Assembly: GCA_965178125.1 (NCBI GenBank)
Contig: OZ237754.1
Location: 1,054,001-1,079,703 of the forward strand
DNA from: Bilabrum cf. latius
Lineage: Eukaryota
Length of the DNA stretch: 25,703 nt
Reading direction: 5' to 3'
The notes below the pieces were generated by a model. It was given only the letters and a program-made list of their open reading frames with translations. It had not been told where the DNA came from and ran no database searches. A program made the translations under genes and the position numbers. Shown in pieces: positions 1-20,977 of this stretch; the first letter of the stretch is position 1; every line of letters starts with the position of its first letter.

Positions 1-1116
1 GATCTCCTGGGACACAAACACCCAGTCCAGGTCCCCGTTCTCATCGAGTACTACGCGGGGCCTCTCGTTGTTCGCGGACGGGTGTGGCGGCCCGATGAGC
101 TTGGAGGACCACCCCCACTGCAGCCCGTCGGGGGACCACCCGTGCGTCAGGTCGGGGGCCGAGTGCAGCAGCAGGTGGAACCCTCGCCTGCCGCGGTACA
201 GCACGGGGTCCTCCGTGAGCACCTTGCCATTGCCCACGGGGACAGAGCCGTTCACGCCGGCGAGAGGCACCCAGCTGTAGCCCTCGCTCCAGTGCTGCGC
301 TCGGTACAGGAAGATGTTGTGGTACACCTGCCTGGTGCCGTTGGGGAAGCGGCCCGCGTCCTTGCCCCGGGCCACCATCAGCGTGGTGCCGTTGGGGAAC
401 ACGTACGGGGCTGGGTTGCTGGTGCCTGCATCAAATGGTAGTTTCTTTGTGGTCACGTTGATGCTGCCCGCGCTGGCCCACGGCCCGTCCAGCGACTTGC
501 TGTAGTGGATGTGCGTGATAGAGTTGCCGGGGCAGGAGGGGGCGGGCCATCCGGGTGGGGGGCGAATGCCTGTGCAGTTGGGCGTGATGCCTCCTTCGCA
601 TCCTTGAAAGTACGGGTTGCAAGAGTCGGGGTTGTCCCCTCCTCCGATGTGGTACAGCAGGTGCATCTTGTCGGAAGGACTGTATGTGTAGTATGCGTTG
701 TGAGCCTGGGTGCCCACGGCCACACCAACCTTCTGATAAGGGCCTTCAGGTCGATCAGCAACTGTGTGGGCAATCGTTGACATTCTCGCCCATGTGCACA
801 TGCCACAGCCAGCTGCAATTTCGGTCACATACAAATGGTACTTGGTCCCGTCGTAGACAGGAGGTCCGCCGCCCCAGCTGGACGATTTCGATACACCATG
901 ACCATAAACGACTTTTGGCGTGTTATCGAGGTTCAATATCTCGCAGGTGTCGCCTGTCCACCCCTTGTCACATTCGCAAGCACCCTGGTCGTTGCAAGCT
1001 CCGTTCAGGCTGCAGTCCATGTCAGTGCTGCATCCAGCGGCAACAACATGTGCTACCAGACTAAACGCTGCAACGACAAAGGCAGCTCCAGCTGGGATGC
1101 CCCCAGTGTTCCGCAT
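1..1116 (-). CDS. Secreted protein with an EGF-like Cys module and a GH43-like five-bladed beta-propeller glycoside hydrolase domain; 3'-partial, runs off the window
   Basis: Translated by hand because it is not in the ORF track. ATG at 1116, 372 codons with no stop. Signal-like MRNTGGIPAGAAFVVAAFSLVAHVVAAG, EGF-like CSTDMDCSLNGACNDQGACECDKGWTGDTC, then SSWGGG..YHLYVTEI..CGMCTW..S.IAH..EGPY, AHN, SNPAP, EDPVL and ERP motifs typical of eukaryotic GH43-like propeller proteins. Confidence 0.8.
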   Translation of the reverse strand, partial: MRNTGGIPAGAAFVVAAFSLVAHVVAAGCSTDMDCSLNGACNDQGACECDKGWTGDTCEILNLDNTPKVVYGHGVSKSSSWGGGPPVYDGTKYHLYVTEIAAGCGMCTWARMSTIAHTVADRPEGPYQKVGVAVGTQAHNAYYTYSPSDKMHLLYHIGGGDNPDSCNPYFQGCEGGITPNCTGIRPPPGWPAPSCPGNSITHIHYSKSLDGPWASAGSINVTTKKLPFDAGTSNPAPYVFPNGTTLMVARGKDAGRFPNGTRQVYHNIFLYRAQHWSEGYSWVPLAGVNGSVPVGNGKVLTEDPVLYRGRRGFHLLLHSAPDLTHGWSPDGLQWGWSSKLIGPPHPSANNERPRVVLDENGDLDWVFVSQEI

Positions 1117-1251
1117 GAAGCCAAGTACACTGGTAGTACGGAAGGAGAGGTCCCGTCGCTCGCGATTTCACGAAAACCGGAAACATTTCTTAAAGTACGG
1201 TGCACTTTTACATGCCCGTTTCGCTCCGGGCTTCCAACAAGCGGCTCTACG
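1117..1251. promoter_or_regulatory. Putative compact bidirectional promoter between the GH43-like gene and IFT52
   Basis: 135 bp between divergent ATGs at 1116 (-) and 1252 (+). Inferred from position only. Confidence 0.45.
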
Positions 1252-3585
1252 ATGTCGTCTTCTACTGCTACTAAGGTATGGTACTTCATCGTTAGCGTGT
1301 GTTTGGGTTAGCCGGATTAAGGCTGCTAGAGTTCTTTGTGTTAGACACTTCTTGCATCCCACACGCAGGTTGCTGGCTCGCTGCCACTAATGATGTTCGA
1401 TGCCGGCAAGAAAGAAGCTGGGGCCGCATCGATGCGAAAGTTTGCTCGACGGTTGAAGGCGACATGTAGATTAGCGCCGTGAGTTCACGCCCTGTGTCCT
1501 GCGTACGAGCCTGTGGTGCCGTCCGTTGGATTGCAGCTCCGGAAAAGAAATGCCTAAGAGAGCATCACTGTGCATAAGTGCGATTTCTGCATGGCACATT
1601 GTCATTAACCTATACTAATCTGTCGCTCGGCCCGGGGAAGATTAATTGGGAAGGCCAGCAACTTCTCATGTCGCTGCCCACTTTCGCAAATTCTCATCGC
1701 AGCTCGAAGAACGAAATATCCTCTGAGGTTCTCAAAAACGTGTCCGTGTTCGTATTAGCATGCCCTAGGTCAAAGCTTTCGGCTGCAGAAATCTCAAGCT
1801 TGCATGAATTCGTTGGGAGGGGCGGATCGCTGCTGGTCCTGTCTGGCGAAGGCGGTGACAAATCTCACGATACCAACTTGAATGAAATTACGGAGCCGCT
1901 TGGTGTAAAGATCAACTCTGATGTAGTACTTCGTGCCTCATTCCACCAGTTTTTACATCCCAAGGAATGTATCGTCAGCGGAGGAGTGGTGGACGAGGGG
2001 CTGCAGGCGGCCGTATCGCGTCTATCCCGCCGAGGAGGACTCGAATTTATGTGAGATAACACGCAACCAGTGTGCCTACATAATTGCGCCATGCTTCCTC
2101 CCTGTGCTGCTCGCCCTAACCTCGCCTACGATCCCCGAACGCACTGCACCCCTCGCTGCTCGCAGCCCCAAGACAGCGGCCGAGGCAGACGAGAGCAGAG
2201 CTGATGCAGCCACGTAGTCGTAGCAGACATTTGTGTTCCCCCGAGGCGCCACGCTGCAGGTGAAGGCGTCCACGGAGGTGCACGGGGCGCAGGCCACACC
2301 GCTGCTGACCTCTGGACTCGTGGCCTACCCGCTGCACCAGCCCACCGCGGCCCTCATCCAGGTCAGGGCAAGGACCAGAGCAGAGGAATTCAGGGGAGGC
2401 GGAGAGGAGGACGAAGAGGAGGACGGGCCCAGCAGTGGGGCGGGCGACGCGAGCCCAGGAGGCGGTGCCTCGTCGTCTAGCAGCAGCAGCAGCCGTCCGA
2501 CAGCGGGCCGAGTGGCTGTGCTGGGCTCTTGGGAGATGCTTGCGGATGCGTACATTGGCAAGAACAGCAATGCGGCAATGGCAGACGCCATCACTCGCTG
2601 GCTGCTGAAAGACCCCGCGGTGAAGCTCGCAGACCCTGGCAGCATCACCGGCTGGGCGGCGGGGGGGGAGGACGAGTCGAGGGGGGGCGGGGCCCGGGGG
2701 AAGGGCGCGGACAGGCGAAGGGGCAGGAAGACCGGGCATGCGGGCGCGCGAGGCAGGGGAGGCGCGGCTGCAAGCGGCTCCACGCCCGCAGGCCTGGGTC
2801 AGGACGGGCAGGAGGAGATCCCCAAGCGGCTGTACCTGCCCGACACAGAGTCGCTCGCGGAGAGGTTGCGGCCTTGCCTGCAGGAATCCGAGCAGCTGCC
2901 CCGGGATGTGCACCGCCTCTTCGACAACGAGCTGTTCGGGTTCTCCCTGCGGCGAGTCCCCGAGGCAGTTGCCATGTACGACAAGCTGGGTGTCAAGCAC
3001 GAGCCTCTGTCCCTCATCCCCCCGTAGTTCGAGACGCCCCTGCCACCCCTCAAGCCGGCCGTGTTCCCACCCACGCTGCGGGAGCCCCCTCCGCCGGCCC
3101 TGGAGCTGTTCGATTTGGACGAGCACTTCGCCAGCGAGAGGATTCGGCTTGCGCAGCTGTGCAACAAGTGTGATTAGTCCACCTCCTCCAAGTCGGGCGG
3201 TGGGTCCTCCTCGTCTGCTTCCTCCCGCGGGGGGCGCGTGGACGAAAAGGACCTGGACTACTTCATCCGGGAGGCGGCCGATATCGTGGGTGTCACCCAG
3301 CAGCTGCCGGCGGACCAGCGAACGGCAAGGCACGCGCTGTGCTACGTGGCGCAGGCCTTGATTCGATTGCGCAAGCTGCATCACGACGCGGACGAACCAC
3401 CCCTGCTTGGCGCCAGGAGCGACACCGCCGGGGGCAGCGGGCAGGGCGCGGCGGACGGTGCTGGCGGCATCGGGTCGCTTTACAAGAGCGCAGTGGCAAC
3501 CGCGCAGACCACTGGTGCGGCAGGCATGGGACCCGCTGTTGCAGCAGGATTTAGCAGTCCAGGGAAGGGCAAGAGTGGGAAGTGA
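1252..3585 (+). CDS. IFT52: Intraflagellar transport protein 52 (IFT-B); 4 exons (1252-1275, 1369-1478, 1703-2050, 2166-3585), ~633 aa, 4 in-frame TAG read as sense
   Basis: Conserved blocks MFDAGKKE, GGSLLVLSGEGG..DTNLN, HPKE, TFVFPRGATLQV, LLTSGLVAYPLHQP, YLPDTESLAERLRPCLQE, PP*FETPLPPLKPAVFPPTLREPPPPALELFDLDEHFASE..RLAQLCNKC and DLDYFIRE. GT..AG introns keep phase (1276-1368, 1479-1702, 2051-2165). In-frame TAG at 2215, 2221, 3025 and 3175; ends TGA 3583-3585. Exon 1 is the least certain. Confidence 0.93.
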
Positions 3586-3880
3586 TTGCTTACAGCGTAG
3601 GTTCGAAAACTCGTCCTGACTGGTTTTCAGTCGCAGGCACAACTATGTGGCACCAAGTCTACCGGTGCAATCAACTGGGTGGATGAAGCTCGCAATACAC
3701 ATTCCCCTCAATTGTTCGCAGTTGTGTCTTAAAGCGCTGTTTTGGTGCAGTCTGGATCACAGATCGACCGTCATCCTATGCAGTGACAAAAATGTTGGCA
3801 TACACCTTAGCTCTTTCTTAGCACAAAAGAATGCCAAGTTCCCTACACCCAACACCGACCTCCCCAATCCATAGAAAAGG

Positions 3881-4064
3881 ATGCCCACCGACCTCCATCC
3901 GCCGCACCCAACACTGACCTCCCCAATGCCCACCGACCTCCATCCGCCGCACCTAACACCGACCTCCCCAATGCCCACCGACCTCCATCCGCCGGACCCA
4001 ACACCGACCTCCCCGACAACCTACCGACCTCCATCCGCCGCACCAAACACTGACCTCCCCAACA
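3881..4064 (+). repeat. Telomere-adjacent ~45-bp tandem repeat, ~4 copies
   Basis: Unit ~atgcccaccgacctccatccgccgcacccaacaccgacctcccca, directly abutting the first TTAGGG block. Confidence 0.85.
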
Positions 4065-4066
4065 CT

Positions 4067-4156
4067 TTAGGGTTAGGGTTAGGGTTAGGGTTAGGGTTAG
4101 GGTTAGGGTTAGGGTTAGGGTTAGGGTTAGGGTTAGGGTTAGGGTTAGGGTTAGGG
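4067..4156 (+). repeat. (TTAGGG)15 telomeric repeat, block 1
   Basis: Perfect TTAGGG array. Confidence 0.98.
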
Positions 4157-4244
4157 TATCTGGGGGTCATGTTAGGATCGGGGCACGCCCTTTTTTGGAC
4201 CAAAAATAAAAACGCCGCACATTATATATATTCAGATAGCCCTT
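4157..4244 (+). repeat. Telomere-associated 88-bp unit A, copy 1
   Basis: tatctgggggtcatgttaggatcggggcacgccc...cagatagccctt. Recurs at 4796-4883 (variant) and 15413-15500. Confidence 0.92.
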
Positions 4245-4466
4245 GATCGGGAGAGTTGATTTATGGTTGGTTGGCGGCACTCATTTCCAATATTGAGCGA
4301 GATATGGGGAGGTTTCGGGTCACCAGTTGAGCGGATGATTTTGGCAGGTCGTTTTAGGCATGTTCAAAGACGAGTGGCCGTTTGATTGTCTAGGTGGTTA
4401 TCAGACATGGCCAACAATATGGTATGCATAGCTTGTGTGCCCTGGTTGGGCATTCGCGGCGCCTTT

Positions 4467-4795
4467 TTAGGGTTAGGGTTAGGTTAGGGTTAGGGTTAGG
4501 GTTAGGGTTAGGGTTAGGGTTAGGGTTAGGGTTAGGGTTAGGGTTAGGGTTAGGGTTAGGGTTAGGGTTAGGGTTAGGGTTAGGGTTAGGGTTAGGGTTA
4601 GGGTTAGGGTTAGGGTTAGGGTTAGGGTTAGGGTTAGGGTTAGGGTTAGGGTTAGGGTTAGGGTTAGGGTTAGGGTTAGGGTTAGGGTTAGGGTTAGGGT
4701 TAGGGTTAGGGTTAGGGTTAGGGTTAGGGTTAGGGTTAGGGTTAGGGTTAGGGTTAGGGTTAGGGTTAGGGTTAGGGTTAGGGTTAGGGTTAGGG
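4467..4795 (+). repeat. (TTAGGG)n telomeric repeat, block 2
   Basis: TTAGGG array with one TTAGG variant near its start. Confidence 0.98.
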
Positions 4796-4883
4796 TATCT
4801 GGGGGTCATGTTAGGATCGGGGCACGCCCATTTTTGCACCAAAAAATAAACCGTCGCACATTATATATATTTAGATAGCCCTT
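4796..4883 (+). repeat. Telomere-associated unit A, copy 2 (diverged)
   Basis: Same ends as copy 1 with several internal differences (cccatttttgcaccaaaaaataaaccgtcgc). Confidence 0.9.
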
Positions 4884-4903
4884 GATGCGTAGATATCCGT
4901 AAA

Positions 4904-5119
4904 AGGGTTAGGGTTAGGGTTAGGTTAGGGTTAGGGTTAGGGTTAGGGTTAGGGTTAGGGTTAGGGTTAGGGTTAGGGTTAGGGTTAGGGTTAGGGTTAG
5001 GGTTAGGGTTAGGGTTAGGGTTAGGGTTAGGGTTAGGGTTAGGGTTAGGGTTAGGGTTAGGGTTAGGGTTAGGGTTAGGGTTAGGGTTAGGGTTAGGGTT
5101 AGGGTTAGGGTTAGGGTTA
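4904..5119 (+). repeat. (TTAGGG)n telomeric repeat, block 3
   Basis: TTAGGG array with one TTAGG variant. Confidence 0.98.
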
Positions 5120-5247
5120 CAGTACCATCTCAGGGAAGGGTAAGGCGCCGCGAAAGTTGACATGTTCCGCAGAAGTTGACATGTTCCGCAAAGACGGCGG
5201 TGCCGCGCAGTGTCGAAGTGGTCGCAAGATCGCACTGAGGCGGATCT
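5120..5247 (+). repeat. Telomere-associated 128-bp unit B, copy 1
   Basis: cagtaccatctcagggaagggtaagg...gaggcggatct, containing aagttgacatgttccgca twice. Recurs at 15966-16093. Confidence 0.92.
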
Positions 5248-6194
5248 GGGCCAGTTGCAAGGATGCAAGCAGTCGGCAAGAGGTGCAAGTGATTGGCAAT
5301 GCATATTTGGTGTTTGATTATGTGTGTCTGCTTGGTTTGCAATGAATCTCGGCCGCGGTCTCCTCGGCAGTGCGGCCCGTGGGTGACGAGCACCCAGGGG
5401 GCTGCACGGGATGGACGCCCACCCGGCGAGTCTGGACCAAACCGCGTCGTGCAAATTGGGTTTGCCAAGGAGGTGTGCCCTGCTGTGTTTCGCCCGCGAG
5501 AATAGGGGGTTGTCTCCCCGTCGGGCAGGTGCTCCATCCAGCTCGCCCGTCCGTGACTGAGACAGCACGGGCCGCGACAAGTGCGCGAGCCCGGGGATCA
5601 AGTCAGCGGCCGATGGCAGCGAGCCGGCATGAAGCGCGTGCACGAGGAGCTTGCGCTCCCCATGCACTGCCTGCCCCACCTCATTGCGGATCTGGGACAT
5701 CAGGTTCATCGTGTTGCCACACACACCTCCACACTCGACGATCGGATCTACAGAGACACCTGTCCCGGGATGCTGCTCCTCGTCATTGGCCTGCTCCTTC
5801 TCGCCCCGGGGGCACGCGCTGCCTCGAAGCACGCACCCGCGCTCCCGCCCGACTCAAGGACTAAGTGCTGGGAGGGTGCGCGGGCAGCCGCGTGAGAGGA
5901 TGACGGGCGTGCCGCCGAAGGCCGAGTCCAGGAGCTGGGGACGGGACGCATCATTGGGACTGCCCTGAAGAGACCAAAGAATCAACCGCCATCCGTACGG
6001 ATCCCTATACGGTTGGCCGGTCTGACTCTCTGCTCGCCCACCGCACGGATCTGCTCAGTTCCATGCAATGTTTGCCAGAAGCGGCGAGAGGGTCTCATCA
6101 GCACAGGTGGGTCCTAAAGGCTGCCTGCAATGCATAGGAAAAGAATGAAACGATTGAAAACAAATTTATAGCCCCTCGATGCATGGCAGCATAC

Positions 6195-6574
6195 CTGAGT
6201 GCTGTCATGAAAACTGGACAACGCACAAGCACGTCAGCAGACCAGCGACCTTCCCATTCAGATGCCAGAACCTAACACAAATACAAAGCAAACAAACTGA
6301 ATGAATACAATAGAATCAAAATACCTGGCGGTTGTTGTACTCGGGCTATGCGGTACCTAGCTGTTCTGTCTGCAAACGCCATCGCGCGCCCCAAGGAGAC
6401 GAGACCAAAGCAGAGCCACAGCAGCATTCCACCTTGAACACACAACGATGTATGGCAGTAAATGGTAATTAACATGAATCCCAACAGCCCCCAGGACAGT
6501 TGAGCCGGTCTGTGGCGCGGAGAGGTGTGGTTGCGCCAGAATCCACAAACGGTCGCGAACAGCGGAACCAGCAT
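6195..6574 (-). CDS. Possible exon of a hydrophobic membrane protein; boundaries uncertain
   Basis: ORF 6272-6574 has TM-like stretches and reads on through TAG 6272 (LYLC*VLASEWEGRWSADVLVRC) to a donor ag|gtatgc at 6194, followed by a pyrimidine tract and ttgcag acceptor at 6125. No homology recognised. Confidence 0.3.
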
Positions 6575-7313
6575 GCCGCGGCGCGGCGTCTGAGCTTCAC
6601 GATGCAGCCAGACTCAGCAGTGTATACGGTCAATCTCGTCATTGTTTCAAGCAAGTTATTATTTCGTTGCACTTGATCATAGCTATCAGTTCGATTTATG
6701 CATTACTTGGGGGAATATTTGAGATTTGCTCACGTTAGCAGGTGCTCCAGCTGCCAGAAGTATACGAGAACCGTGCACAGCTTCGCGATTTGATAACGCT
6801 GGCGCATCATATTCATACATCAATTCAATCTAGTCTAATTCCACACGCTACGCAGCAGGCATCGCTGTCCTCCAGTTGACATGCTGAAGCCCCCACTGCT
6901 CCTCAGTGCCAGCCAGCACAAGCGACTTCCTTTGCTGACCAACTGACCGGCACCTCAGGCTACGATACTAAGTAGGTTTCAATGAAACATTTCGGCGGCA
7001 TCCTAGGACGGAATTGATAACCCGGACGTCGGAATCAGCCCACTGGCAGGCAGTCACCACAGCAAGTCAGGTCACCGGATGTGTCCGTGCACGATTGGGA
7101 TCAGTACGCTTTGTGGACCGCATCCCAACTCGATACATAAAGTCTTAGTACTTGTACAACAACCAATCTACGGAACGGAGTATGTGGCTTGGTACAACAT
7201 GTAGGACGACGTGTTGGAGGCAGCCCCATATATTGGTTTCCAGACCATTTCTAGAAAACTGTTCAGCATAGGTCGAATAGTACTTGCTCATAGCTAAACT
7301 CTTGTTCAATTTG

Positions 7314-10300
7314 TCAATCCCAATACGTGTCATGGTCCCAGTATACGTCGTCGAGGGCTGGAATGGAGATCCATTGCGGCGGATGGCCTGGAACCAGCGT
7401 CTCCACTTCACCACGAGCACCTGAGTAGGCATGCTCCAACGCTTCTGAGCCATGACTACGTAGGCTCGAACTTGACACGGGCGATATCGCCAAGCGTTGC
7501 TCGTCCTCCTCGTCTGCTCCTTCTGCCTCGCTAGATGCTGCAAGCCGCTGGATCCCCCTGGGTGCTGCTGCGGTGCCGCTCGAGGAACCCTAGGGCGGTG
7601 CCAGACCAGCCAATGCTGCACGTTTCCTTGCGTCTATGCCTAGTGACGACTGCAATGTAAACGCGTCACCACCACTCCCAGCTCCACTGGATGCTGGCCG
7701 CCCAGACTGGTAGTTGCCAATTGCCGGAGGCTTGAAACCACCGTCACTGACAGCTCCCGACGTTCCGGTCAGTGAAGCTATTGGGATGTCTGGCCGCCGG
7801 AAGCGCTTCTTGGAACGCGGCATTTCATCATGCTCTTCATCACTGTGTTCGGAGGGCCATTGCTGGCTTGCATGGTTCTCCATGACAGGACTCAATGATG
7901 CTGAAGGCTACTGCGTTGATGCGCTGGTAGCCCCGATGTCTTCACCAGAGCAAGCACGCCGGAACAAATCGGGCGTATCGTTGGGCAGCGCGGGATAACT
8001 TTCCCTGGTTGCCTGCCATATCCTATATCTGTGGATCCTCTTTAGACGTTCCTGACCGCCAATGATGCGAGCGACTTCCGTGCGAGCAGCATGCACAATC
8101 TTTAAGTCGTCCTGCATGCAGATTCGTAGGTCTCCCTTGCCCGCCAACTTGTTGTACGGAGCATCCGAAAGTGCAGGCACGGTGAATGGAGCTGCTTGCA
8201 GGTCCACGCACAGGCCTGCGCCATGGTAGCATACATCGATCACCCGCCTGAGAGACCCATCTGGTCGGTTCAAGGTTCCCTGAAACGTCTGCTTGTCACC
8301 AAACCTTGGAATCTGCCACTTGCCATGCTCCACCATGAACTCTTCGACGCGCTGGGCAACAATGACGGCAGGCTATGCGGATGCTGGAGGTGGCCCAACC
8401 ACCACGGTCGGTCCATCCTCCGCGTCTGGTGCTTGATCACCTCTCGGTCGCTTGATTCCAGGCAGCTAAGTTCGCTGTATACGGTCTGGTAGCAATGTTG
8501 CAGATCCAATTACGCAAGCTGGAAGCAGCCATTGGGACAGCATGCTGCGGAACTGCTCGTCTGCTACTGATGGCTGTCCTTGCGGCCTGGTGCTCACAAC
8601 GGCTCGCAGCAGAGCCGCGACATACGACGTCTTTACTGAGGATTCCGCAGGAAGCGTGCGCTGCATGGTTGGGGACTCTGTCGTCAGAACGGCAACAGGA
8701 AGGCCAGACGCTCGAGCAGAGGACTTGGTAGCGTAATCTGCCCTGAAATTGCCTGCATTCGTCGACCCGCGCCACATGGCAGCCGCGGTGGGGTACGGGC
8801 AGACTGCTGTCTTCGATATGCACGACCTCAGACCCACCAAGATCGAGCTCCTCGAGCACTTCAATCGAGACACAAGCTGCCCGTACAGTGCTACAGCCAG
8901 ACTACCCCTTGCTAGCATTCCCTTCCGTGTGCCGTTGCGTAGGTGGAGCTTTGGCAAATGCAACTGTGCCAGATACAGCTTCCTGAGCTCCATCTCAATC
9001 GTGATAGCAACGTTGATACCGGTCAGCGCCCGCATGTCATAGACTAGCTAGCACCGAACAGGAAGTTTGTCTAGAATGGCCGCCACAACGTCAGCTCGTA
9101 CCATTGCGCGAAATCCTGCGACCCCGCTATTGACACCACTAATCCCCATCCTAAACTGCTCGCTATCGTGCGCCGACACAAGCCCACAGAGGGCATATTG
9201 CGTGGACCTCCTGGCCACTTGCCATGTCATTCCGTTGCACTCTGCTACGGCGCAAAGGCTCCAAGACGTAACTATGATTTCACATACGGCTAAAACCGTC
9301 CACGAGTTCAGGCGCGAGCCGTGGCCGTCCCCAGCGCGAACGGAATGCACGGCACTGGCAACTTGATCGACGATTGCTGCTGCGACTGCAACAACAGCAG
9401 ATTGCTCTGGCATGCACCCAGATGACTGCAGACAGTCGCGGACGACCTGCCACTCAATTGTAGCAGGTCCAAGGTTGCGCAGGACAGGCCTTGTTGCAGG
9501 TAGCCATGTCACAGCAGTTTGTTCTGCAACAACCTGCGACCATGCATCCGTTCGTAAAGCCACCCATCCTTCTAAGCAACACCGGGACATTGATGCCGCT
9601 AGCGCCCACATTGCAGAACGTTGGAATGTCGGAATCCTGTCAGAACCGCAGACAGATGCCACAAGCAACCTCTGGATCCTTTGGAGGGCTCGATTGAAAG
9701 TAGTGTAAACCAACTGTATGTAGTCCTCCATGACATCGTCATGCACGACTTCTATGAAATGGCGTGCGAAAGGAGCTTCAGAATACTCTTCAGTAGTCTA
9801 GGCGCGGTGCTCAGGGCGCTGCTGCTAGTAGATTGCTTCAGCTGGTAGCATCACGCAGCCCAGCATCAAGGCCATGGTTGATGCGGGCACGTCGAATTCG
9901 CCTCGCGTTGACCCTTTCAGGCCTTTCGACAGCCTTTGCATGCTTTGTTCGTATGCTGTTTGAAGCCCACACTGTATATGCCTGCGAATTGGCAGTGTCT
10001 CGAGTGCTCCACTAGCAGCTGCGACATCTCTACCTCGCGCAACGGGTGCAACTGCTCTTTGTGCGTCTGTCTCAGCAGAGTGGCGCAGCCTGGAGAGAAC
10101 ACGCCGCCGAAATAGATCATGCGCGGAATCGTGCGTCCCTGGACTTGGCTATTGGGATCGGAACGCTCCGGGCTGATACACGTGCAACTACGACGACAGC
10201 AGGCAGCCAAATGGCAGGAAGGACGATATACCCCCGTCGTCACTGGTTGCATGCGCGGTATCCTTGGCAAGTACACGCTGGTGTATTGCAGCGATGTCAC

Positions 10301-13100
10301 CCCAAGAGATAGAAGACGGCAGCTTCCCTTGCAATGTCCCAGCGTACTCGCCAACCGACGCCAGTGCCCCGTAGGGACGAGTAGCCTCTCGCACCACGGC
10401 GTACCGAGCCCGTTCGAGCGGCGTACCATGCACAACCTCTTGCAAAAGCTCATCACGACTGCTGTGCATGAACTTTATCATAGCTGGGTTGGGAATTGCT
10501 ACTGTGTGCGAGGGCTGGCCACACAATTCAAAGCCAACGCCAAAACTGCAGTACGTGGCCATGTCTGCGTCTTGCTGGGGAGTCAGCAGACCATGCGGAT
10601 GAATGATGGCCGCAAGATCTCGCATACCTCGACGCTACTAAGATCCACTCCATGCACGCGCCTGCGCCACGCCAGTCTGCATCTATCGACTGGCAACACG
10701 CGTCTTTGGCTTGCTGCTGGCAGCTGTTGTAGAGCTTGGACCTGTGGGAGTCCTTGATGTCCCGTCACTGCGATCTCCTGTCGGACCAAACCACTCACCT
10801 CTCCGTCCTCTGGCGTCCTCTTCATCGCTTTCATCCATCGCAGCTTGTCGAGCGCGCTCCCGTGCTGACTGCTGAGCAGCAATGTCTGCCTCTGCTCTGC
10901 GCATCTGTTGCTGTGCAGCCTGCAGCAAGAGAGACATCGGCTTGCAAGCCTTGCAGCCGACTCGCTATACATAAAACACTGAGCATCTTGCCACCTGCCT
11001 CATGAGCAATATCATGAGGAATCGGTTGTAGTGAGAAACGTGCACCATGCGCCGCAGCAAGCCGTCCTGATCCTAGAGCCAGTTGTCCCGGCCAAGCACT
11101 GCAACGGATTCTGCTTGCCTTGCTTCTGTGGCCTCACTCACACCAGAGTCGGAGTCAGACCTGGAGTCAGACTCGGAGTCGGAGTCAGACACATCAGTCT
11201 GACCAACAGCAGGATACCCCAAGCATCGCACCCAATGAAATGCACTTGACAGAAATCGTGATGGACTACGGTCCCGAGTGTGAGAACTGGGCCAGAATCT
11301 GCTTGTCTACGGGCCTCGCCCACTGGCAACATGCGTGAGAGATGACTTGAATCCACCAGTTTGCCCACCTCCGCGCTATACACGAATCACTAGCTCGGGT
11401 CCCTACCAATCGAGCTTCTTGGCAGCAGCTCGTAGGCCCGAGCCAAACACGTACAGCAAACAACTCCGAATGACATCGATGTGTGATCCTTGGGTCCAGA
11501 ATCCCTCGTCGTTTGCTAGTTCCACAACCCCTTCAGAATCAAGCGTGTGTTGCAGTGACCTAATAGGAGGTTCAAAGGCGTCGATCAGGTCTCGACAGAA
11601 GGCAAGCAAACCACCCGGCACCATGACAGACACTGTAGCTGCACCAACGTCGAAAAGCTGAACGTGAATATCAGTTGCAAGACCGCTCAGGACATGAAGC
11701 TTTGGTAGATTAGCCTATTGATCGCTCTGGCCGCTCGATGACGCTTGATGCACGGCCCGACTCCACAAGGTTCCAGCGTGCGGGAGCACTGAGGACCAGC
11801 CTCCCCTGTCAGCTTTGTCGAGAGTCCACTGGTACTCACGTTTGCACTGCTACTCAATGTGTTTGCTATATCTAGACACGTCTGCCTAAGCCCCAGCTGC
11901 CAGGACCCGAATGTTCGTGCCACCAATACCGTGCGGACTTTGCTGGCGCAGAGCATGCACCTTGGCCACCACGCTCGCAACCTCCAAGGTATCCCCGTGT
12001 TTCTCTAACGAAGACCATCGCATGGCAGTCTGCTCATCCTTGAAGACGCTATCACCGCCATCAATGTGTGACGACCATGCTAGTCGCATCGAGCCTCCTG
12101 CAGGTGGGCGCTGGGCATGTGCCGCTCGAACTACCACGCCAGAAGCAGGCGATTGAGACAAGCTGGTATACGACGGAAGCAGCGAATCTGAGTCATGGAC
12201 GCCTAGAACGCCATCTGTGATCCAGTCCAGCAGTGTATGGTCCGATCCGTCCAGCCCCAGCGGCCTTGCCAACGTTTGAGGCAGGAAGTAGTTCGAAGTC
12301 TCATCTTCACCTGTGCCAGTACAACACGCTACCGCTCCAAGTGCAGTGTATCCATCTAAATCAAAGGCAGAATCACAGTGACAAGACAGCGGCATGTCGT
12401 CAGAGAGTGGGGGAACCTAGAACGCTGCAAAGCTCTACGGTCGGTCCGAAAGTGTGCTGCTTGTCGATCTCCTTCTTGACGCCGAGCTTGGAAGGCCTCG
12501 GCTGGCACTTGGTGGGATTGGCTAGCCAGATGATCGACTCTCCGCAACAATGGCCTTCTTTCTTGCCGCAGCACGAGCTCCTTGTCTACGGACAGGAGGC
12601 AATGGTGCAAATCCAAGGCACATATCTGCTAAGAATCTCTGCGATGGTGACAGCTCCACCATCCTCTATTGGCCAGACGCTGGTGCTGGTCGGGACAGAA
12701 TGCGGCCTGATGCACCTCCAGAAGCTTGGCTTGCACCTCCTGACAGACTATGGCTGCTGCTGGGACCACCGCTTCTCGATGAGCGAGGACGGGCTGGTGA
12801 GCTCCCAGAGGCTTGGCTTGCACCTCCTGACAGACTGCGGCTGCTGCTGCGACCACCGCTTCTCGATGAGCGAGGACGGGCTGGTGAGCTCCCAGAGGCT
12901 TGGCTTGCACCTCCTGACAGACTGTGGCTGCTGCTGGGACCACCGCTCTTCGATGAGCGAGGACGGGCTGGTGAGCTCCCAGAGGCTTGGCTTGCACCTC
13001 CTGACAGACTGTGGCTGCTGCTGGGACCACCGCTTCTCGATGAGCGAGGACGGGCTGGTGAGCTCCCAGAGGCTTGGCTTGCACCTCCTGACAGACTGCG

Positions 13101-13139
<39 letters not shown>

Positions 13140-13950
13140 ACTGCTACTGCTGCTACTGCTGCTACTGCTGCTACTGCTGCTACTGCTGCTACTGCTGCTA
13201 CTGCTGTTACTGCTGTTACTGCTGCTACTGCCTGGCGACTGCAGGTGCTCCGTTGGACCCGCCAACGGCTACCTCACTCCATCAATATGCACTGAGGGAG
13301 CCACTGTCCTGCTTGCCAGCGCTGCTTGCGCGGGGAGGTGATCATGAGGAGCATATTGGCAGCAATCAACCAAAGATACATCGGAATGTAGGTCTGATGA
13401 TTCCAGCAGCCATTGAATGGTCGTCTTGTGGGAGATCTCTGCATTGGCGCTCGGTGTATCGTACACCACGAGTAGAGAAGCCAGCAAGTTGTCGAAGTCA
13501 GCAGCTTTTACTTGCAGCAAGCGGAGACAGTCCTCGATCTCTTGGGTCTCGACACCATCCATCTGTGAGATGGCGCATGAAATTATAAGCGTAGCACTTG
13601 TGCCGAAAACTGAAATTTGTAACTGGTTGATGCAAACCGATGAAAAACGTCTCACTTCACGGGGTGGATTTGGCTAGTCGTGGTTGAACTCGCGGATTAA
13701 GCTCAATTTCTCCTCTGCGATCTGCGAAAGTTATTATACGGGTATATACTTAATATCAGTTAGCGAGCCATGACGGGACCATTGTAGCATGTGCAACAGC
13801 TGGTCTCACTGGTACTTGCTGCCAATGAATGGACCGTCGAGTTAGGGCTTGCTCCAACCGTGTAAGCACCTTGCGCATAGATGCGAGCTAGTCCTTTTCA
13901 TTAACGATACTGCACGCATTATCGATGGTGCAAAAATGTTCACTGGCCAT
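7314..13950 (-). CDS. Giant hypothetical protein (~2150 aa), visible only when TAG is read as sense; model exons 13950-13810, 13721-13656, 13562-7314
   Basis: ORF-track fragments ending at 7590, 7908, 8466, 9048, 10188, 10683, 11403, 11886, 12666 and 13269 share one frame and all end in TAG. Reading the gaps by hand finds no TAA/TGA between TGA 7314 and TAA 13731, with 26 TAG. gtgaga donors (13809, 13655) and cag acceptors (13722, 13563) are in phase 0. The 5' structure is less certain than the main frame. Confidence 0.8.
12719..13099 (-). repeat. 87-bp coding tandem repeat (~4.4 copies) encoding SLSGGASQASGSSPARPRSSRSGGPSSSH
   Basis: Near-identical units with period 87 (e.g. 12719, 12806), a multiple of 3, inside the giant ORF. 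Confidence 0.92.
13103..13230. repeat. CTG/CTA trinucleotide microsatellite encoding poly-Ser in the giant ORF frame
   Basis: (ctg)n then (ctactgctg)n. The minus strand reads agc/agt in the open frame. Confidence 0.92.
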
Positions 13951-14082
13951 CCTAGACTTGTTGCAATGGGTGTTGCACTGAACGGATATTTTGGCTCAGG
14001 GTGTGTGCGCGGCGCCACTGGCAACAGTTGATTACGGAACACGACCGACTGCTGCCAGGATTCGAAAAGTTCGAGGGATTGA
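13951..14082. promoter_or_regulatory. Putative compact bidirectional promoter
   Basis: 132 bp between inferred divergent ATGs at 13950 (-) and 14083 (+). Confidence 0.35.
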
Positions 14083-15066
14083 ATGATGTAGAAGCATGGT
14101 TTAGGTCCCAAGTAGGAACACACATCGCCGTGGAAGTTGCTTGGAGTGGTTCCCGGTGACTTCGTCTTGGACTGTCTTGCCGTTCGACGGGGCATTTGCA
14201 TCGCTGCAAGCTGCATAGCTCAAGAAAGCTTGCGGTTCATTGTATAGGTTGGTACGCATGTATCTGCGCACTAGCGTAGCCATTTGTATTCCGTACTACA
14301 GCAAATTTGTACTGCATCGGAAGGCTCGGTACTATGCGTTGATCCGGCGTTCGTGTTAGGAGAAACAGGCAGGCGGCACTTGCGCCTGGCCCTCAACAGC
14401 ATTCAAGACGAGACAGATGCAAGATTGAACTCCATACGACTAAAGCTGGTAACACCGAGAACAGCTACTATTGATCCAAGGGCAAACGTGAGTACATCAA
14501 GCCGATCAAGCTAGCTTGCCACCAAATCAATGCGTGGAGTAGGCAGCGAAGGAGGTTCTCGCACAGCTATGAAAGGCATCGACGAGCACCGTAGCGAGGT
14601 ACGTGGTGTGCCAAGCCCAATTGACGACAGCAGTAGAGCATCCTAGACTCGTGCTGCAAGTTCCAGCATGCCTAGCTCTAACCGTACCTCTGGTAGCAAG
14701 CAAGCTGATCAGGCTGGTGCGTACTCGTGGCAAGAGGCAGTCATGCACTTGCGGACACTATGCGACAGCTGCGAACGGAAGGTGCGCCTATCTCGTGAGG
14801 AATCGCGCAGCCTGGTCCACACTGCAAGCAACAGCATTGAACCCGCGCTCACGCGCATGCTGCAACTTGCCCGTGCGGAGACATCCGCCAAGACTACTCC
14901 ACATAGGCAGGCCCCAAAGGCTACCACCAGTACGTACACCAGATCTAAGGCGTTGCCGCAAAGGACTCTGCCGAAGAAGCGAAAGCTGCTAGCTGCGAGC
15001 GCTTCCAGCAAGAAGAAGGCCAGGGTGGTCAGCCAGGGTGCCATCGCGTTTCTATCGGGAAAGTGA
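14083..15066 (+). CDS. Hypothetical 327-aa protein with a basic C-terminus (KKRK NLS-like); needs TAG as sense
   Basis: ATG 14083 follows TGA 14080. One frame joins ORF-track pieces 14284-14514 and 14668-15066 through TAG at 14089, 14113, 14245, 14272, 14512 and 14644, with no TAA/TGA until TGA 15064-15066. Confidence 0.65.
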
Positions 15067-15342: not shown

Positions 15343-15412
15343 TAGGGGGGGGGTAGGGTTAGGGTTAGGGTTAGGGTTAGGGTTAGGGTTAGGGTTAGGG
15401 TTAGGGTTAGGG
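15343..15412 (+). repeat. (TTAGGG)n telomeric repeat, block 4
   Basis: Degenerate G-run start followed by a TTAGGG array. Confidence 0.95.
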
Positions 15413-15500
15413 TATCTGGGGGTCATGTTAGGATCGGGGCACGCCCTTTTTTGGACCAAAAATAAAAACGCCGCACATTATATATATTCAGATAGCCCTT
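15413..15500 (+). repeat. Telomere-associated unit A, copy 3
   Basis: Matches 4157-4244. Confidence 0.92.
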
Positions 15501-15965
15501 AGGGGGGTTGGGTTAGGGTTAGGGTTAGGGTTAGGGTTAGGGTTAGGGTTAGGGTTAGGGTTAGGGTTAGGGTTAGGGTTAGGGTTAGGGTTAGGGTTAG
15601 GGTTAGGGTTAGGGTTAGGGTTAGGGTTAGGGTTAGGGTTAGGGTTAGGGTTAGGGTTAGGGTTAGGGTTAGGGTTAGGGTTAGGGTTAGGGTTAGGGTT
15701 AGGGTTAGGGTTAGGGTTAGGGTTAGGGTTAGGGTTAGGGTTAGGGTTAGGGTTAGGGTTAGGGTTAGGGTTAGGGTTAGGGTTAGGGTTAGGGTTAGGG
15801 TTAGGGTTAGGGTTAGGGTTAGGGTTAGGGTTAGGGTTAGGGTTAGGGTTAGGGTTAGGGTTAGGGTTAGGGTTAGGGTTAGGGTTAGGGTTAGGGTTAG
15901 GGTTAGGGTTAGGGTTAGGGTTAGGGTTAGGGTTAGGGTTAGGGTTAGGGTTAGGGTTAGGGTTA
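15501..15965 (+). repeat. (TTAGGG)n telomeric repeat, block 5
   Basis: TTAGGG array with a degenerate start (aggggggttggg). Confidence 0.98.
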
Positions 15966-16093
15966 CAGTACCATCTCAGGGAAGGGTAAGGCGCCGCGAA
16001 AGTTGACATGTTCCGCAGAAGTTGACATGTTCCGCAAAGACGGCGGTGCCGCGCAGTGTCGAAGTGGTCGCAAGATCGCACTGAGGCGGATCT
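15966..16093 (+). repeat. Telomere-associated unit B, copy 2
   Basis: Matches 5120-5247. Confidence 0.92.
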
Positions 16094-16546
16094 TTAGGGT
16101 AGGGTTAGGGTATAGGGTTAGGGTTAGGGTTAGGGTTAGGTTAGGGTTAGGGTTAGGGTTAGGGTTAGGGTTAGGGTTAGGGTTAGGGTTAGGGTTAGGG
16201 TTAGGGTTAGGGTTAGGGTTAGGGTTAGGGTTAGGGTTAGGGTTAGGGTTAGGGTTAGGGTTAGGGTTAGGGTTAGGGTTAGGGTTAGGGTTAGGGTTAG
16301 GGTTAGGGTTAGGGTTAGGGTTAGGGTTAGGGTTAGGGTTAGGGTTAGGGTTAGGGTTAGGGTTAGGGTTAGGGTTAGGGTTAGGGTTAGGGTTAGGGTT
16401 AGGGTTAGGGTTAGGGTTAGGGTTAGGGTTAGGGTTAGGGTTAGGGTTAGGGTTAGGGTTAGGGTTAGGGTTAGGGTTAGGGTTAGGGTTAGGGTTAGGG
16501 TTAGGGTTAGGGTTAGGGTTAGGGTTAGGGTTAGGGTTAGGGTTAG
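16094..16546 (+). repeat. (TTAGGG)n telomeric repeat, block 6, abutting bacterial DNA
   Basis: TTAGGG array with variant units at its start (tagggt, tataggg, ttagg). Confidence 0.98.
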
Positions 16547-16549
16547 TGG

Positions 16550-16714
16550 TTATCGATCGCTATCTTTCTTAATTCTCCTTAAAAGATTGGATCGACTCAT
16601 GGCCATTGCCTCAGCCAATTCTGAAACTCCAAACGACTCATTCGAGATGTTCTCTAACACCTTTTCCTGTACCCTCTTTAGAAATTCACTTTGCTGATTT
16701 AAGTGCTCCTTCAT
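16550..16714 (-). pseudogene. AraC-type helix-turn-helix regulator, N-terminal fragment truncated at the junction
   Basis: Hand translation MKEHLNQQSEFLKRVQEKVLENISNESFGVSELAEAMAMSRSNLLRRIKKDSDR*. This is the first half of an AraC HTH, cut off next to the telomeric block. Confidence 0.8.
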
Positions 16715-16939
16715 CGCGTCTCGAAATTAGTTTTTTTCGGTCTACCCGAAAATAGACTTAGACGCTGCATTTTATCCCTCAGAAGGCTATTTGCGTCATA
16801 ATTTATACTCCTGCGTCATAGTTTTCCTGCACTCCTCAAAGTTTATGAACCCTGCTGCATAACAGTTACAGCGGGGCTTTTGCGCTTCCCACCTTTGTAC
16901 TGTTCAATTTCTATCACATTAAAATCAAAAATCACAGAA

Positions 16940-17509
16940 ATGAAAACGATCAAATTAAGCTATTCGAAAATCTTAGTAGCAAGTTCCTTATTTATGGTCC
17001 TTTTTTCGGCCTGCGCACAATCACAAAACTCCGAAACCCCTAGTCAGATAACTGCGCCGCAAATGGATATTCAAACCGCAGTACTAAGTGGGAATCTTGA
17101 AGCAGTAAAGCAACACATCGCCGCAGGAACTGATCTCAATCAAAAAGATCCCATGACCGGTTCCACACCTCTGATCACTGCTGCCACTTTTAATCGGGTA
17201 CAAATCGCCCAAGCTCTTATTGAAGGTGGCACCGATTTGAGCCTTAAGAATAATGATGGTACTACTGCCCTGCACAGTGCAGCATTTTTCGGACGAATAG
17301 AAATCGTAAAGCTCCTTATTGAGGCCAAGGCCGATAAAAGCCTACTCAACAATTTTGGTGCTACTCCTCGCCAGACGGTCATGGGTGATTTCGCGGAAAT
17401 CAAACCGATCTACGAAATGATGCAATTGCAGTTAGGTCCTTTGGGCTTGCAACTCGATTTAGCTGAAGTTGAAGCGGCGCGTCCGGTGGTGGCTATGATG
17501 TTGCAGTAG
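16940..17509 (+). CDS. Ankyrin-repeat lipoprotein
   Basis: Probable start MKTIKLS at 16940, lipobox FSAC, ankyrin motifs GSTPLITAA and GTTALHSAAFFGRIEIVKLLIE. Ends in TAG. Confidence 0.9.
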   Translation: MKTIKLSYSKILVASSLFMVLFSACAQSQNSETPSQITAPQMDIQTAVLSGNLEAVKQHIAAGTDLNQKDPMTGSTPLITAATFNRVQIAQALIEGGTDLSLKNNDGTTALHSAAFFGRIEIVKLLIEAKADKSLLNNFGATPRQTVMGDFAEIKPIYEMMQLQLGPLGLQLDLAEVEAARPVVAMMLQ

Positions 17510-17575
17510 GGATTATTGTTGAGTAGATAGTGAAAAGTAGAAGGTTCAAAGTAGAGAAAGTAGAAAGTAGAAAGT

Positions 17576-18643: not shown

Positions 18644-18750
18644 GCTAAGCTTCCCTAAAGTGCCAAACAGAATAGTAATCTCCAGAGATTAGACTTTTCC
18701 CTTGAATAGCAACATGGTTCAGTATGAATGAATAGGTAATTAACAGTATT

Positions 18751-20949: not shown

Positions 20950-20977
20950 ATAAAGAAGGCTTTTATCTCCGATCCAT

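What the first reader, a model, noticed from the sequence alone, without database searches (positions are those of the whole stretch)
1252..15066. Non-canonical nuclear code: UAG is sense (probably Gln), UGA stops, UAA never in frame
Seen: three independent genes carry 37 in-frame TAG (IFT52 4, giant gene 27, 14083 gene 6) and no in-frame TAA over roughly 3000 codons. All three end in TGA. TAG 3025 lies in the conserved IFT52 motif IPP*FETPLP, where human IFT52 has Gln, with no room for an intron. TAGs often sit next to CAA/CAG or each other (7908, 9825, 10149, 10635/10638, 11715, 11850, 12666, 2221), as expected for Gln runs. Established: most eukaryotic reassignments change UAA and UAG together (many ciliates, hexamitid diplomonads, some ulvophytes). 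UAG-only codes are rare (e.g. Iotanema spirale UAG=Gln, a rhizarian UAG=Leu, some phyllopharyngean ciliates). Inference: this GC-rich flagellate with TTAGGG repeats may be another independent UAG-only lineage. Whether UAA is a stop or simply unused cannot be told from this window.
Basis: partly seen in the sequence, partly recalled or inferred. Interest (0 to 1): 0.95.

Follow-up and report, generated by a model that had tools for sequence, protein, structure and literature searches.

The report
Eukaryote reading UAG as glutamine
The GC-rich eukaryotic part of this window comes from an unidentified flagellate-type organism that reads the stop codon UAG as glutamine while keeping UGA, and probably UAA, as stops, which is a rare variant of the nuclear genetic code.

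Summary
In-frame TAG is as frequent as off-frame TAG. TAA and TGA are purged from the frames.

TAG behaves like an ordinary Gln codon:
- In IFT52, TAG 3025 sits in a column that is Q in 73 of 83 homologues.
- In the giant gene, TAG sites match Q in close relatives at 5 of 9 sites, against 28 of 45 for CAA/CAG sites.
- A BLOSUM likelihood over 39 observations puts Gln 13.7 ln units ahead of Glu.

A metagenome contig (L006) holds a distant orthologue of the giant gene with 24 in-frame TAG and 0 TAA. Its neighbouring ORF has 4 TAG and ends in TAA. Contigs from runs of three studies carry the same letters.

UAA as a sense codon is statistically excluded. UAA as a stop rests on that one case. No tRNA or eRF1 gene could be reached, and the organism stays unplaced. 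The profile differs from Iotanema, and the TTAGGG repeat and GC content differ from what I recall of ciliates.

Window 16552-25703 is bacterial DNA (Croceimicrobium MAG, 99.95%) joined at a telomere array, most likely an assembly chimera.

Verdict: probably a further lineage with a known rare code.

The parts
1252..1275 (+). IFT52 exon 1 (ATG start)
   Evidence: Gene model read from the sequence. All three introns are GT-AG, and the joined CDS is 1902 nt, in frame.
1369..1478 (+). IFT52 exon 2
   Evidence: tblastn with IFT52 homologues matches 1387-1473. Splice sites.
1703..2050 (+). IFT52 exon 3 (GIFT domain, N-terminal part)
   Evidence: tblastn matches 1704-2042 with E down to 4e-23. Splice sites.
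2166..3585 (+). IFT52 exon 4. It holds 4 in-frame TAG (2215, 2221, 3025, 3175) and the TGA stop at 3583-3585.
   Evidence: Pfam IFT52_central 3.1e-36, Itf52_C 9.2e-17 and IFT52_GIFT 2.3e-13. TAG coordinates.
3025..3027 (+). TAG in the conserved IFT52 motif LIPP-x-FETPLPPL
   Evidence: The alignment column is Q in 73, E in 9 and G in 1 of 83 homologues. It is S in Chlamydomonas.
7314..13730 (-). Giant ORF of 2138 codons with 26 in-frame TAG, 0 TAA and a TGA stop at 7314-7316. The first ATG is codon 57. No Pfam family matches.
   Evidence: Orthologous fragments in relatives. Orthologue in L006.
14083..15066 (+). ORF of 327 codons with 6 in-frame TAG and a TGA stop, divergent from the giant gene
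   Evidence: An ORF of like size and position lies in L006, with weak similarity (E = 0.031).
1..1167 (-). Gene for a secreted EGF-domain protein (P0124), cut by the window's start. It has no TAG in 389 codons.
   Evidence: Homologues at up to 75% identity.
4067..5119 (+). TTAGGG arrays interrupted by a repeated telomere-associated element
15350..16551 (+). Second set of TTAGGG arrays, holding the same two kinds of inserted element. It ends at the join with bacterial DNA.
16552..25703 (.). Bacterial DNA, not part of the coding finding. It is 99.945% identical to the chromosome of a Croceimicrobium sp. MAG.

Best explanation
Window 1-16551 is nuclear DNA of a GC-rich eukaryote with spliceosomal introns, an intraflagellar-transport gene and TTAGGG telomere repeats. 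Its translation system reads UAG as glutamine. UGA terminates, and UAA is not a sense codon and probably terminates too. This is the code pattern of NCBI table 15.

Shown:
- UAG is read through in at least three genes here and two in a distant relative.
- UAG sites behave like ordinary Gln codons.
- TAA and TGA are excluded from the frames.

Inferred, because none of it could be tested here:
- A tRNA-Gln with anticodon CUA decodes UAG. It would be one base change away from tRNA-Gln(CUG).
- That tRNA cannot read UAA, because C34 does not pair with A.
- An eRF1 with an altered N-terminal domain no longer recognises UAG but still recognises UAA and UGA. This is by analogy with the T32G change in the GTS motif proposed for Iotanema spirale (PMC5304391, section 9, passages read).
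For: 1. Open frames.
- A 2138-codon frame holds 26 TAG, 0 TAA and no internal TGA. Its off-frames hold 26/59 TGA and 8/4 TAA.
- The same pattern holds in IFT52 exon 4 and ORF 14083.
- In L006 the orthologous frame of 1902 codons has 24 TAG, 0 TAA and a TGA stop. A second ORF of 336 codons has 4 TAG and a TAA stop.

2. TAG is not selected against. There are 64 in-frame TAG in all, against about 62 expected from the off-frame means (my arithmetic).

3. The amino acid is Gln.
- The IFT52 column at TAG 3025 is Q in 73 of 83 homologues.
- In fragments from close relatives, TAG sites align with Q at 5 of 9 sites. Canonical CAA/CAG sites in the same alignments do so at 28 of 45. Chance P for 5 of 9 is 2e-5.
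- Against L006, Q is found at 6 of 18 aligned TAG sites. CAR-Gln identity there is 9 of 60.
- A BLOSUM62 likelihood over all 39 observations puts Q first, then E at -13.7 and K at -16.9 ln units.

4. UAA is not sense.
- 0 of 64 TAR codons are TAA, although CAA is 42.6% of CAA+CAG (P = 3.9e-16).
- 0 in-frame TAA are seen against about 21 expected from the off-frames (P = 7.6e-10).

5. TAG is read through, not a terminator.
- Conserved sequence continues after the last TAG of IFT52: the Itf52_C domain at ORF residues 445-480 follows TAG at residue 423.
- The same holds for the giant gene. A relative's fragment aligns across TAG 2047 to the last residue, 2138.

6. The letters are real. Contigs from runs of three studies are identical over the genes.

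7. The DNA is nuclear and eukaryotic. IFT52 has a four-exon GT-AG gene model, and TTAGGG arrays are present.
Against: - Only about 16.5 kb of this organism and 8.1 kb of one relative could be read, giving five frames in all.
- Only one TAG lies at a strongly conserved column. Two other aligned IFT52 TAG sites fall in variable columns (N/Q tie at 21 each; G in 49 of 83), and a fourth falls in an insertion that 81 of 83 homologues lack.
- Many TAG sites in the giant gene align with other residues. These are P, L, E and H in close relatives, and 12 of 18 non-Q against L006. In the reverse direction only 1 of 9 L006 TAG sites meets Q, and K scores slightly better for that subset.
- UAA as a stop rests on a single ORF in the relative, whose C-terminus has no homologue to confirm it.
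- Frame ends were defined as the first TAA or TGA, so '4 of 5 end in TGA' is no measure of preference.
- The 389-codon P0124 frame has no TAG.
- No tRNA was found in the window or in L006. No eRF1 was available. There is no RNA or peptide evidence.
Confidence: 0.85

Rival explanations
1. Both UAA and UAG encode Gln (the common UAR=Gln code, NCBI table 6), and TAA is merely rare in this GC-rich genome.
For: This is the commonest eukaryotic stop reassignment (PMC11687900 Discussion, passages). GC is 50-67% in the eukaryotic part. TAA is the rarest of the three triplets overall: 112 against 263 TAG in 14.2 kb, both strands.
Against: - CAA is 42% of CAA+CAG in the same genes, so A-ending codons are not avoided.
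- 0 of 64 TAR codons are TAA (P = 3.9e-16), and 0 in-frame TAA are seen against about 21 expected from the off-frames.
- One ORF with four in-frame TAG ends at TAA in L006.
Confidence: 0.03
2. UAG is sense but encodes another amino acid, such as Glu, Lys, Leu or Ser. Such codes are known in some ciliates, a rhizarian and Scotinosphaera.
For: - E is the second residue at the IFT52 column (9 of 83).
- The 9 L006 TAG sites score K, E and Q within 1.5 ln units of one another.
- 26 of the 39 aligned observations are not Q.
Against: - The pooled likelihood favours Q by 13.7 ln units over E and 16.9 over K. Leu is not among the best six.
- TAG sites match Q as often as canonical Gln codons do: 5 of 9 against 28 of 45.
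- TAG neighbours Gln codons more often than chance: 9 of 36 against 10.7%.
Confidence: 0.05
3. The code is context-dependent. UAG is Gln inside genes but also terminates some genes near the mRNA 3' end, as UAR or UGA do in Condylostoma, Blastocrithidia and karyorelicts.
For: This cannot be excluded from five frames whose ends I defined by reading through every TAG. Such codes exist (abstracts listed).
Against: - All five frames reach a TGA or TAA.
- The IFT52 frame ends 8 residues after a C-terminal motif. Related IFT52 proteins end a similar distance after it: 8, 6 and 5 residues in P0004, P0005 and P0021.
- TGA and TAA are kept strictly out of the frames, unlike in codes with no dedicated stop.
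Confidence: 0.07
4. There is no code change. The TAGs would be sequencing errors, lie in unrecognised introns, or the frames would be decaying pseudogenes.
For: No RNA or protein data were available. IFT52 does contain introns.
Against: - Letters are identical in contigs from runs of three studies.
- Introns or decay would not keep a 2138-codon frame free of TGA (85 off-frame) and TAA.
- An orthologue with 27% identity over about 1400 residues shows the same pattern.
- TAG 3025 lies inside a conserved motif with no room for an intron.
Confidence: 0.01

Closest known systems
Iotanema spirale (Fornicata): UAG = Gln, UAA and UGA stop (PMC5304391; passages of sections 7-9 read)
   Same: Only UAG is reassigned, and to Gln. 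No in-frame UAA or UGA occurs. UAG is not seen as a terminator. The proposed mechanism is a tRNA-Gln(CUA) plus an altered eRF1.
   Different: - In Iotanema UAA is the dominant stop (104 of 119 transcript ends) and UAG is only about 8% of Gln codons.
- Here the three window genes end in TGA, and TAG is 36 of 162 Gln-type codons, or 22%.
- The DNA here is GC-rich with TTAGGG telomeres.
- IFT52 found no near-identical protein in the library I searched. The best hit was 57% identical over the conserved 201 residues.
Ciliates with UAG-only = Gln: Protocruzia tuzeti and two phyllopharyngean lineages (PMC11687900, Discussion passages)
   Same: The same code pattern, which that paper reports as arising independently several times.
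   Different: - The telomere repeat here is TTAGGG and GC is 50-67%. That ciliate telomeres are of the TTGGGG or TTTTGGGG type, and that ciliate genomes are mostly AT-rich, is recalled and not tested here.
- No named ciliate protein appeared among the best 120 IFT52 hits.
- In the PDB search Tetrahymena IFT52 scored far below Chlamydomonas.
UAR = Gln codes (many ciliates, hexamitin diplomonads, some ulvophytes, Streblomastix, Amoeboaphelidium; PMC11687900 and PMC5304391 passages)
   Same: A stop-to-Gln reassignment, presumably through mutated tRNA-Gln.
   Different: UAA is not reassigned here. There are 0 in-frame TAA against 64 TAG.
Rhizarian exLh (UAG = Leu) and Scotinosphaera (UAG = Ser)
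   Same: UAG and UAA are uncoupled, and UAA is kept as a stop.
   Different: The amino acid differs. Gln is favoured here, and Leu is not among the six best candidates.

Membership tests
UAG=Gln, UAA/UGA=stop nuclear code (pattern of NCBI table 15) | In-frame UAG in real protein-coding genes | tested here: met
   36 in three frames of the window and 28 in two frames of L006. IFT52 is identified by Pfam.
UAG=Gln, UAA/UGA=stop nuclear code (pattern of NCBI table 15) | UAG positions correspond to Gln in homologues | tested here: met
   - Q in 73 of 83 homologues at the one strongly conserved column.
- Q at 5 of 9 TAG sites in close relatives, against 28 of 45 for CAA/CAG sites.
- Q is best by 13.7 ln units over 39 observations.
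The sample is small.
UAG=Gln, UAA/UGA=stop nuclear code (pattern of NCBI table 15) | UAA is not used as a sense codon | tested here: met
   0 in-frame TAA in about 5,180 codons of five frames, against about 21 expected (P = 7.6e-10).
UAG=Gln, UAA/UGA=stop nuclear code (pattern of NCBI table 15) | UGA and UAA terminate genes; UAG does not | tested here: inconclusive
   Four frames end in TGA and one, in L006, in TAA. Ends were defined by reading through TAG. Only the IFT52 and giant-gene ends are supported by homologues.
UAG=Gln, UAA/UGA=stop nuclear code (pattern of NCBI table 15) | A tRNA-Gln with anticodon CUA | not testable with these tools
   No tRNA gene lies in the window or in L006. No whole genome is held for the window.
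UAG=Gln, UAA/UGA=stop nuclear code (pattern of NCBI table 15) | eRF1 N-domain altered (GTS, NIKS, YxCxxxF motifs) | not testable with these tools
   No eRF1 gene lies in the 16.5 kb available.
UAG=Gln, UAA/UGA=stop nuclear code (pattern of NCBI table 15) | TAG present in mRNA and Gln present in peptides | not testable with these tools
   No RNA run was listed, and there are no proteome data.
UAR=Gln code (NCBI table 6) | In-frame UAA as well as UAG, both at Gln positions | tested here: not met
   0 TAA against 64 TAG in frame.
Codes with no dedicated stop (Condylostoma, Blastocrithidia, Amoebophrya sp. Kv types) | In-frame UGA (Trp) together with UAR | tested here: not met
   No internal TGA in any of the five frames, against 26-66 in each off-frame of the two giant genes.
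IFT52 (intraflagellar transport complex B) | GIFT, central and C-terminal IFT52 domains | tested here: met
   PF23352 at 124 bits, PF21178 at 60.9 bits and PF23355 at 50.3 bits, all above the curated cut-offs. The N-terminal GIFT part lies on exons 2-3.

The most novel reading that the evidence does not exclude
The window samples an undescribed clade of GC-rich, non-ciliate eukaryotes that also turns up in environmental data. In this clade UAG was reassigned to Gln long ago, while UAA and UGA stayed stops.

The trait is seen in a relative whose orthologue is only 27% identical over about 1400 residues (L006). At least two intermediate relatives (about 85% and about 65-70% identity) appear only as short ORF fragments in public metagenome and run assemblies. 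That is what standard-code gene callers would produce from TAG-containing genes.

If so, this would be a new, old and independent origin of the rare uncoupling of UAG from UAA. UAG would be a major Gln codon here, at 22% of Gln-type codons.
Probability: 0.45. Interest if true: 0.78.

Novelty: new member of a known kind. Interest (0 to 1): 0.62.

Why it matters
UAA and UAG almost always change meaning together. The texts I read list only a handful of nuclear lineages where they are uncoupled (PMC5304391, PMC11687900).

A further case would help in three ways:
- It lies in a GC-rich genome where UGA rather than UAA ends the genes seen so far, and where UAG supplies about a fifth of Gln codons.
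- It would show whether the same eRF1 and tRNA solutions recur.
- It would show whether GC pressure favours capture of UAG alone.

There is also a practical side. Relatives of this organism appear in public protein collections only as short ORF fragments (43-364 residues). Fragment P0127 spans exactly the stretch between this gene's TAG codons 1561 and 1755. Standard-code gene calling therefore seems to be shredding this clade's genes in metagenome resources.

Tried and rejected
- Whole genome: none is held for the window. Genome-wide codon inference, tRNA search and eRF1 search were therefore impossible.
- RNA evidence: no RNA holder was listed among the 8 runs. All four runs laid were contigs, and no joints were seen. 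This says nothing about expression or splicing.
- More DNA of the organism, which all came to nothing:
  - Exact scans for its telomere-associated element found 0 matches in genome contigs and 0 in metagenome contigs.
  - Two viral-contig scans with relatives' proteins found nothing.
  - Earlier findings of this scan returned nothing for genome, words or sequence.
- Function of the giant protein:
  - No Pfam family matches.
  - No homologue of near length was found among 7998 scored candidates.
I dropped it.
- RNA genes: Rfam at E <= 0.1 gave only two sub-threshold matches on a CTG repeat. There are no tRNAs.
- Taxonomy remains unplaced:
  - In the IFT52 tree (84 rows, quick method) the query sits on a branch of 1.69 changes per column. 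The only starred set joins it to two rows labelled Symbiodinium sp. KB8 and to two unnamed rows. I do not trust this.
  - A C-terminal motif, AG[ML]GPxVAAGF, is shared with 6 of 120 hits, one of them labelled Symbiodinium. This is suggestive only.
  - The P0124 family tree (51 rows) puts the query next to a metagenome protein. It lies within a radiation that holds choanoflagellate, Picozoa-SAG and diatom sequences, so it gives no placement.
  - Searches for the TSA prefix of the nearest EukProt hit and for Amoebophrya telomeres gave nothing useful.
- Amoebophrya sp. ex Karlodinium was considered and rejected. It has in-frame UAA and UGA too, in shares of 58%, 32.3% and 9.7% for UAA, UAG and UGA (PMC12005148 passages). 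TGA and TAA are absent from the frames here.
- A Legionella-like identity of the bacterial part was considered, because of ankyrin, LpxR and DUF900 hits. It was rejected. All NCBIfam hits are far below their cut-offs, and the matching record is a Croceimicrobium MAG.

Full report
**What the window is**

The window is a composite. Positions 1-16551 are GC-rich DNA (0.49-0.67 per kb). From 16552 to the end the sequence is 99.945% identical, over 9153 aligned bases, to a 3.4-Mb bacterial chromosome (G001). A pattern scan gives that record's title as 'MAG: Croceimicrobium sp.'.

The join lies directly at the end of a TTAGGG array. The array's orientation is that of a chromosome's right end running into the bacterial DNA. 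It is not the orientation of a telomere capping the bacterial fragment. I therefore read the join as an assembly or library chimera, though I could not test this in raw reads.

The eukaryotic part is itself two unique segments, 1-4066 and about 5200-15340. Each is followed by TTAGGG arrays. The arrays contain the same two inserted elements. The finding lies wholly within the eukaryotic part.

**Genes in the eukaryotic part**

*IFT52.* The gene is identified by three Pfam domains above their cut-offs. tblastn with homologues, and a reading of the splice sites, give a four-exon model with three GT-AG introns. The exons are 1252-1275, 1369-1478, 1703-2050 and 2166-3585. The joined CDS is 1902 nt and in frame.

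*Giant ORF.* On the minus strand, 7314-13730 is one frame of 2138 codons with no Pfam match.

*ORF 14083.* It runs divergently from the giant ORF, 14083-15066, 327 codons.

*P0124.* At the left edge, 1-1167 (minus strand) encodes a secreted protein with an EGF domain. It has no TAG.

**Check of the observation**

Read with TAG as sense, IFT52 exon 4 has 4 TAG, the giant frame 26 and ORF 14083 6. That is 36 in 2939 codons, not 37. 25 of the 26 in the giant frame lie after the first ATG. No in-frame TAA and no internal TGA occur, and all three frames end in TGA.

The comparison with the two off-frames needs few assumptions:

| Triplet | In frame | Off-frames |
|---|---|---|
| TAG, giant gene | 26 | 24 / 26 |
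| TGA, giant gene | 0 internal | 26 / 59 |
| TAA, giant gene | 0 | 8 / 4 |

So TAG is under no selection against being in frame. TGA and TAA are purged. From the off-frames about 8 in-frame TAA would be expected in the window's three frames (P of none = 3.4e-4).

The letters are not an assembly error of one data set. Contigs of runs X1 and X2 (one study), X5 (a second) and X7 (a third) fit with 0 differences over the pieces listed on the giant gene and ORF 14083. The best holder may be the window's own source. All four runs were contigs, so nothing can be said about transcripts.

**Which amino acid**

TAG 3025-3027 sits in the IFT52 motif LIPP-x-FETPLPPL. Among 83 homologues aligned with the query (83 of the 120 listed hits), the column is Q in 73, E in 9 and G in 1. 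Chlamydomonas has S there. The other three IFT52 TAGs fall in variable or inserted columns and say little.

For the giant protein a near-length search found nothing. An exhaustive HMMER search with its last 1199 residues found 10 proteins. All are short fragments of 43-364 residues, unnamed, from ENA, Logan and JGI assemblies.

In the nine fragments from closer relatives (55-86% identity), TAG sites of the window align as follows:
- Q at 5 of 9 sites: 1032, 1181, 1194, 1786 and 1941.
- P, L, E and H at the other four.

Canonical CAA/CAG Gln sites in the same alignments meet Q at 28 of 45. TAG therefore behaves like an ordinary Gln codon. With Q at 4.6% of fragment residues, 5 of 9 has P = 2e-5.

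Against the distant orthologue in L006, 6 of 18 aligned TAG sites meet Q, while CAR-Gln identity is 9 of 60. In the reverse direction only 1 of 9 L006 TAG sites meets Q.

A BLOSUM62-based likelihood over all 39 observations ranks Q first, E at -13.7, K at -16.9 and S at -17.7 ln units. For the 9 reverse observations alone, K, E and Q are within 1.5 units of one another.

TAG also has a Gln-type neighbour at 9 of 36 sites, against 10.7% expected (P = 0.012).

**A relative shares the trait**

One fragment (P0133) led to a JGI metagenome contig, L006, of 8118 nt. There the orthologous gene is a frame of 1902 codons with 24 in-frame TAG, 0 TAA and no internal TGA, ending in TGA. Its off-frames hold 45/66 TGA and 8/7 TAA. 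It is 27% identical to the window's protein over about 1400 residues.

Upstream and divergent from it, as ORF 14083 is in the window, lies an ORF of 336 codons (P0266). It starts with ATG, has 4 in-frame TAG and no TGA, and ends in TAA. Its similarity to ORF 14083 is weak (E = 0.031).

Fragment P0127 (86% identity) covers exactly residues 1563-1753. That is the stretch between the window's TAG codons 1561 and 1755. This is what a standard-code gene caller would produce if those TAGs are conserved in that relative.

**UAA**

Pooling both organisms, there are 64 in-frame TAG and 0 internal TAA. CAA is 42.6% of CAA+CAG in the same genes. If TAA were a Gln codon used like CAA, P(0 of 64) would be 3.9e-16. 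From off-frame densities about 21 TAA would be expected (P = 7.6e-10).

UAA is therefore not a sense codon, or at most a vanishingly rare one. Its use as a terminator rests on the one TAA-ended ORF in L006. That 4 of 5 frames end in TGA carries no weight, because the ends were defined as the first TAA or TGA.

**Mechanism**

The pattern requires a decoder that reads UAG but not UAA. By the wobble rules that means anticodon CUA, and the residue is Gln. The same argument is made for Iotanema (PMC5304391, section 9, passages). It also requires an eRF1 that spares UAG.

Neither component could be looked at. No tRNA lies in the window or in L006, and no genome is held. These steps are inference.

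**Comparison with what is known**

According to the passages I read, UAG-only = Gln is reported for Iotanema spirale, Protocruzia tuzeti and two phyllopharyngean ciliate lineages. UAG = Leu is reported for a rhizarian and some ciliates, and UAG = Ser for Scotinosphaera (PMC11687900 Discussion; PMC5304391).

The present organism differs from Iotanema, where UAA ends 104 of 119 transcripts and UAG is about 8% of Gln codons. It also differs from ciliates in its TTAGGG repeat and high GC, although that contrast rests on recall.

Two literature searches for further UAG=Gln reports listed no matching organism. Those searches cover only the held library.

The organism itself could not be placed. The IFT52 tree puts it on a very long branch, and the P0124 family is patchily distributed.

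**Verdict**

- UAG is a sense codon: about 0.97.
- It encodes Gln: about 0.9.
- UAA is not sense: about 0.9.
- UAA is a working stop: about 0.6.
- This is a new, independent lineage: open, about even odds.

It is a new member of a known, rare kind of code.

Noticed in passing
window 16552-25703: Bacterial DNA, 99.945% identical over 9153 aligned bases to the chromosome of a Croceimicrobium sp. MAG (OZ257133.1). It is joined directly to the end of a TTAGGG array. Genes include an ankyrin-repeat protein, an acyltransferase, an LpxR-like protein and a HipA-like kinase. Most likely an assembly or library chimera.
   Followed up: partly
window 4157-4250, 4797-4890, 15413-15505: An element of about 90 nt, beginning TATCTGGGGGTCATG, is inserted three times within TTAGGG arrays. 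A second element of about 128 nt contains a doubled 19-mer and occurs at 5120-5245 and 15966-16093. Exact scans of the genome and metagenome contig collections for the first element found nothing. These could be telomere-targeting mobile elements or subtelomeric satellites.
   Followed up: partly
window 5400-6576: Summed contig depth in runs X1 and X2 is several-fold that of the giant gene over most of this stretch, and variant contigs map here. It looks like a multi-copy subtelomeric repeat family.
   Followed up: no
window 4067-5119 between the IFT52 segment and the giant-gene segment: Two unique eukaryotic segments are each followed by TTAGGG arrays in the same orientation. This is either a real interstitial telomere block or a second assembly join through shared telomeric repeats.
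   Followed up: no
window 12718-13231 (giant gene, minus strand): An 87-nt tandem repeat (4.4 copies, 96% matches) encodes a 29-residue Ser/Gly-rich unit. Next to it a 9-nt repeat encodes a long poly-Ser run.
   Followed up: no
window 3881-4062: A 45-nt tandem repeat (4 copies, 89% matches) lies immediately before the first telomere array.
   Followed up: no
window 1-1167 (minus strand): The EGF-domain secreted protein P0124 belongs to a family whose closest named members are from choanoflagellates (Salpingoeca, Stephanoeca, Diaphanoeca, Choanoeca), Picozoa single-cell genomes and a diatom. A 98%-identical protein (P0146) is on record without source or name, which is how the tool lists proteins the window itself encodes. 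It runs 22 residues past the window's edge.
   Followed up: partly
IFT52, window 2166-3585: The protein carries long low-complexity insertions rich in Gly, Ser, Ala and Arg that homologues lack. Its C-terminal motif AGMGPAVAAGFSS is shared by 6 of the 120 best hits, one of them labelled Symbiodinium sp. KB8.
   Followed up: partly
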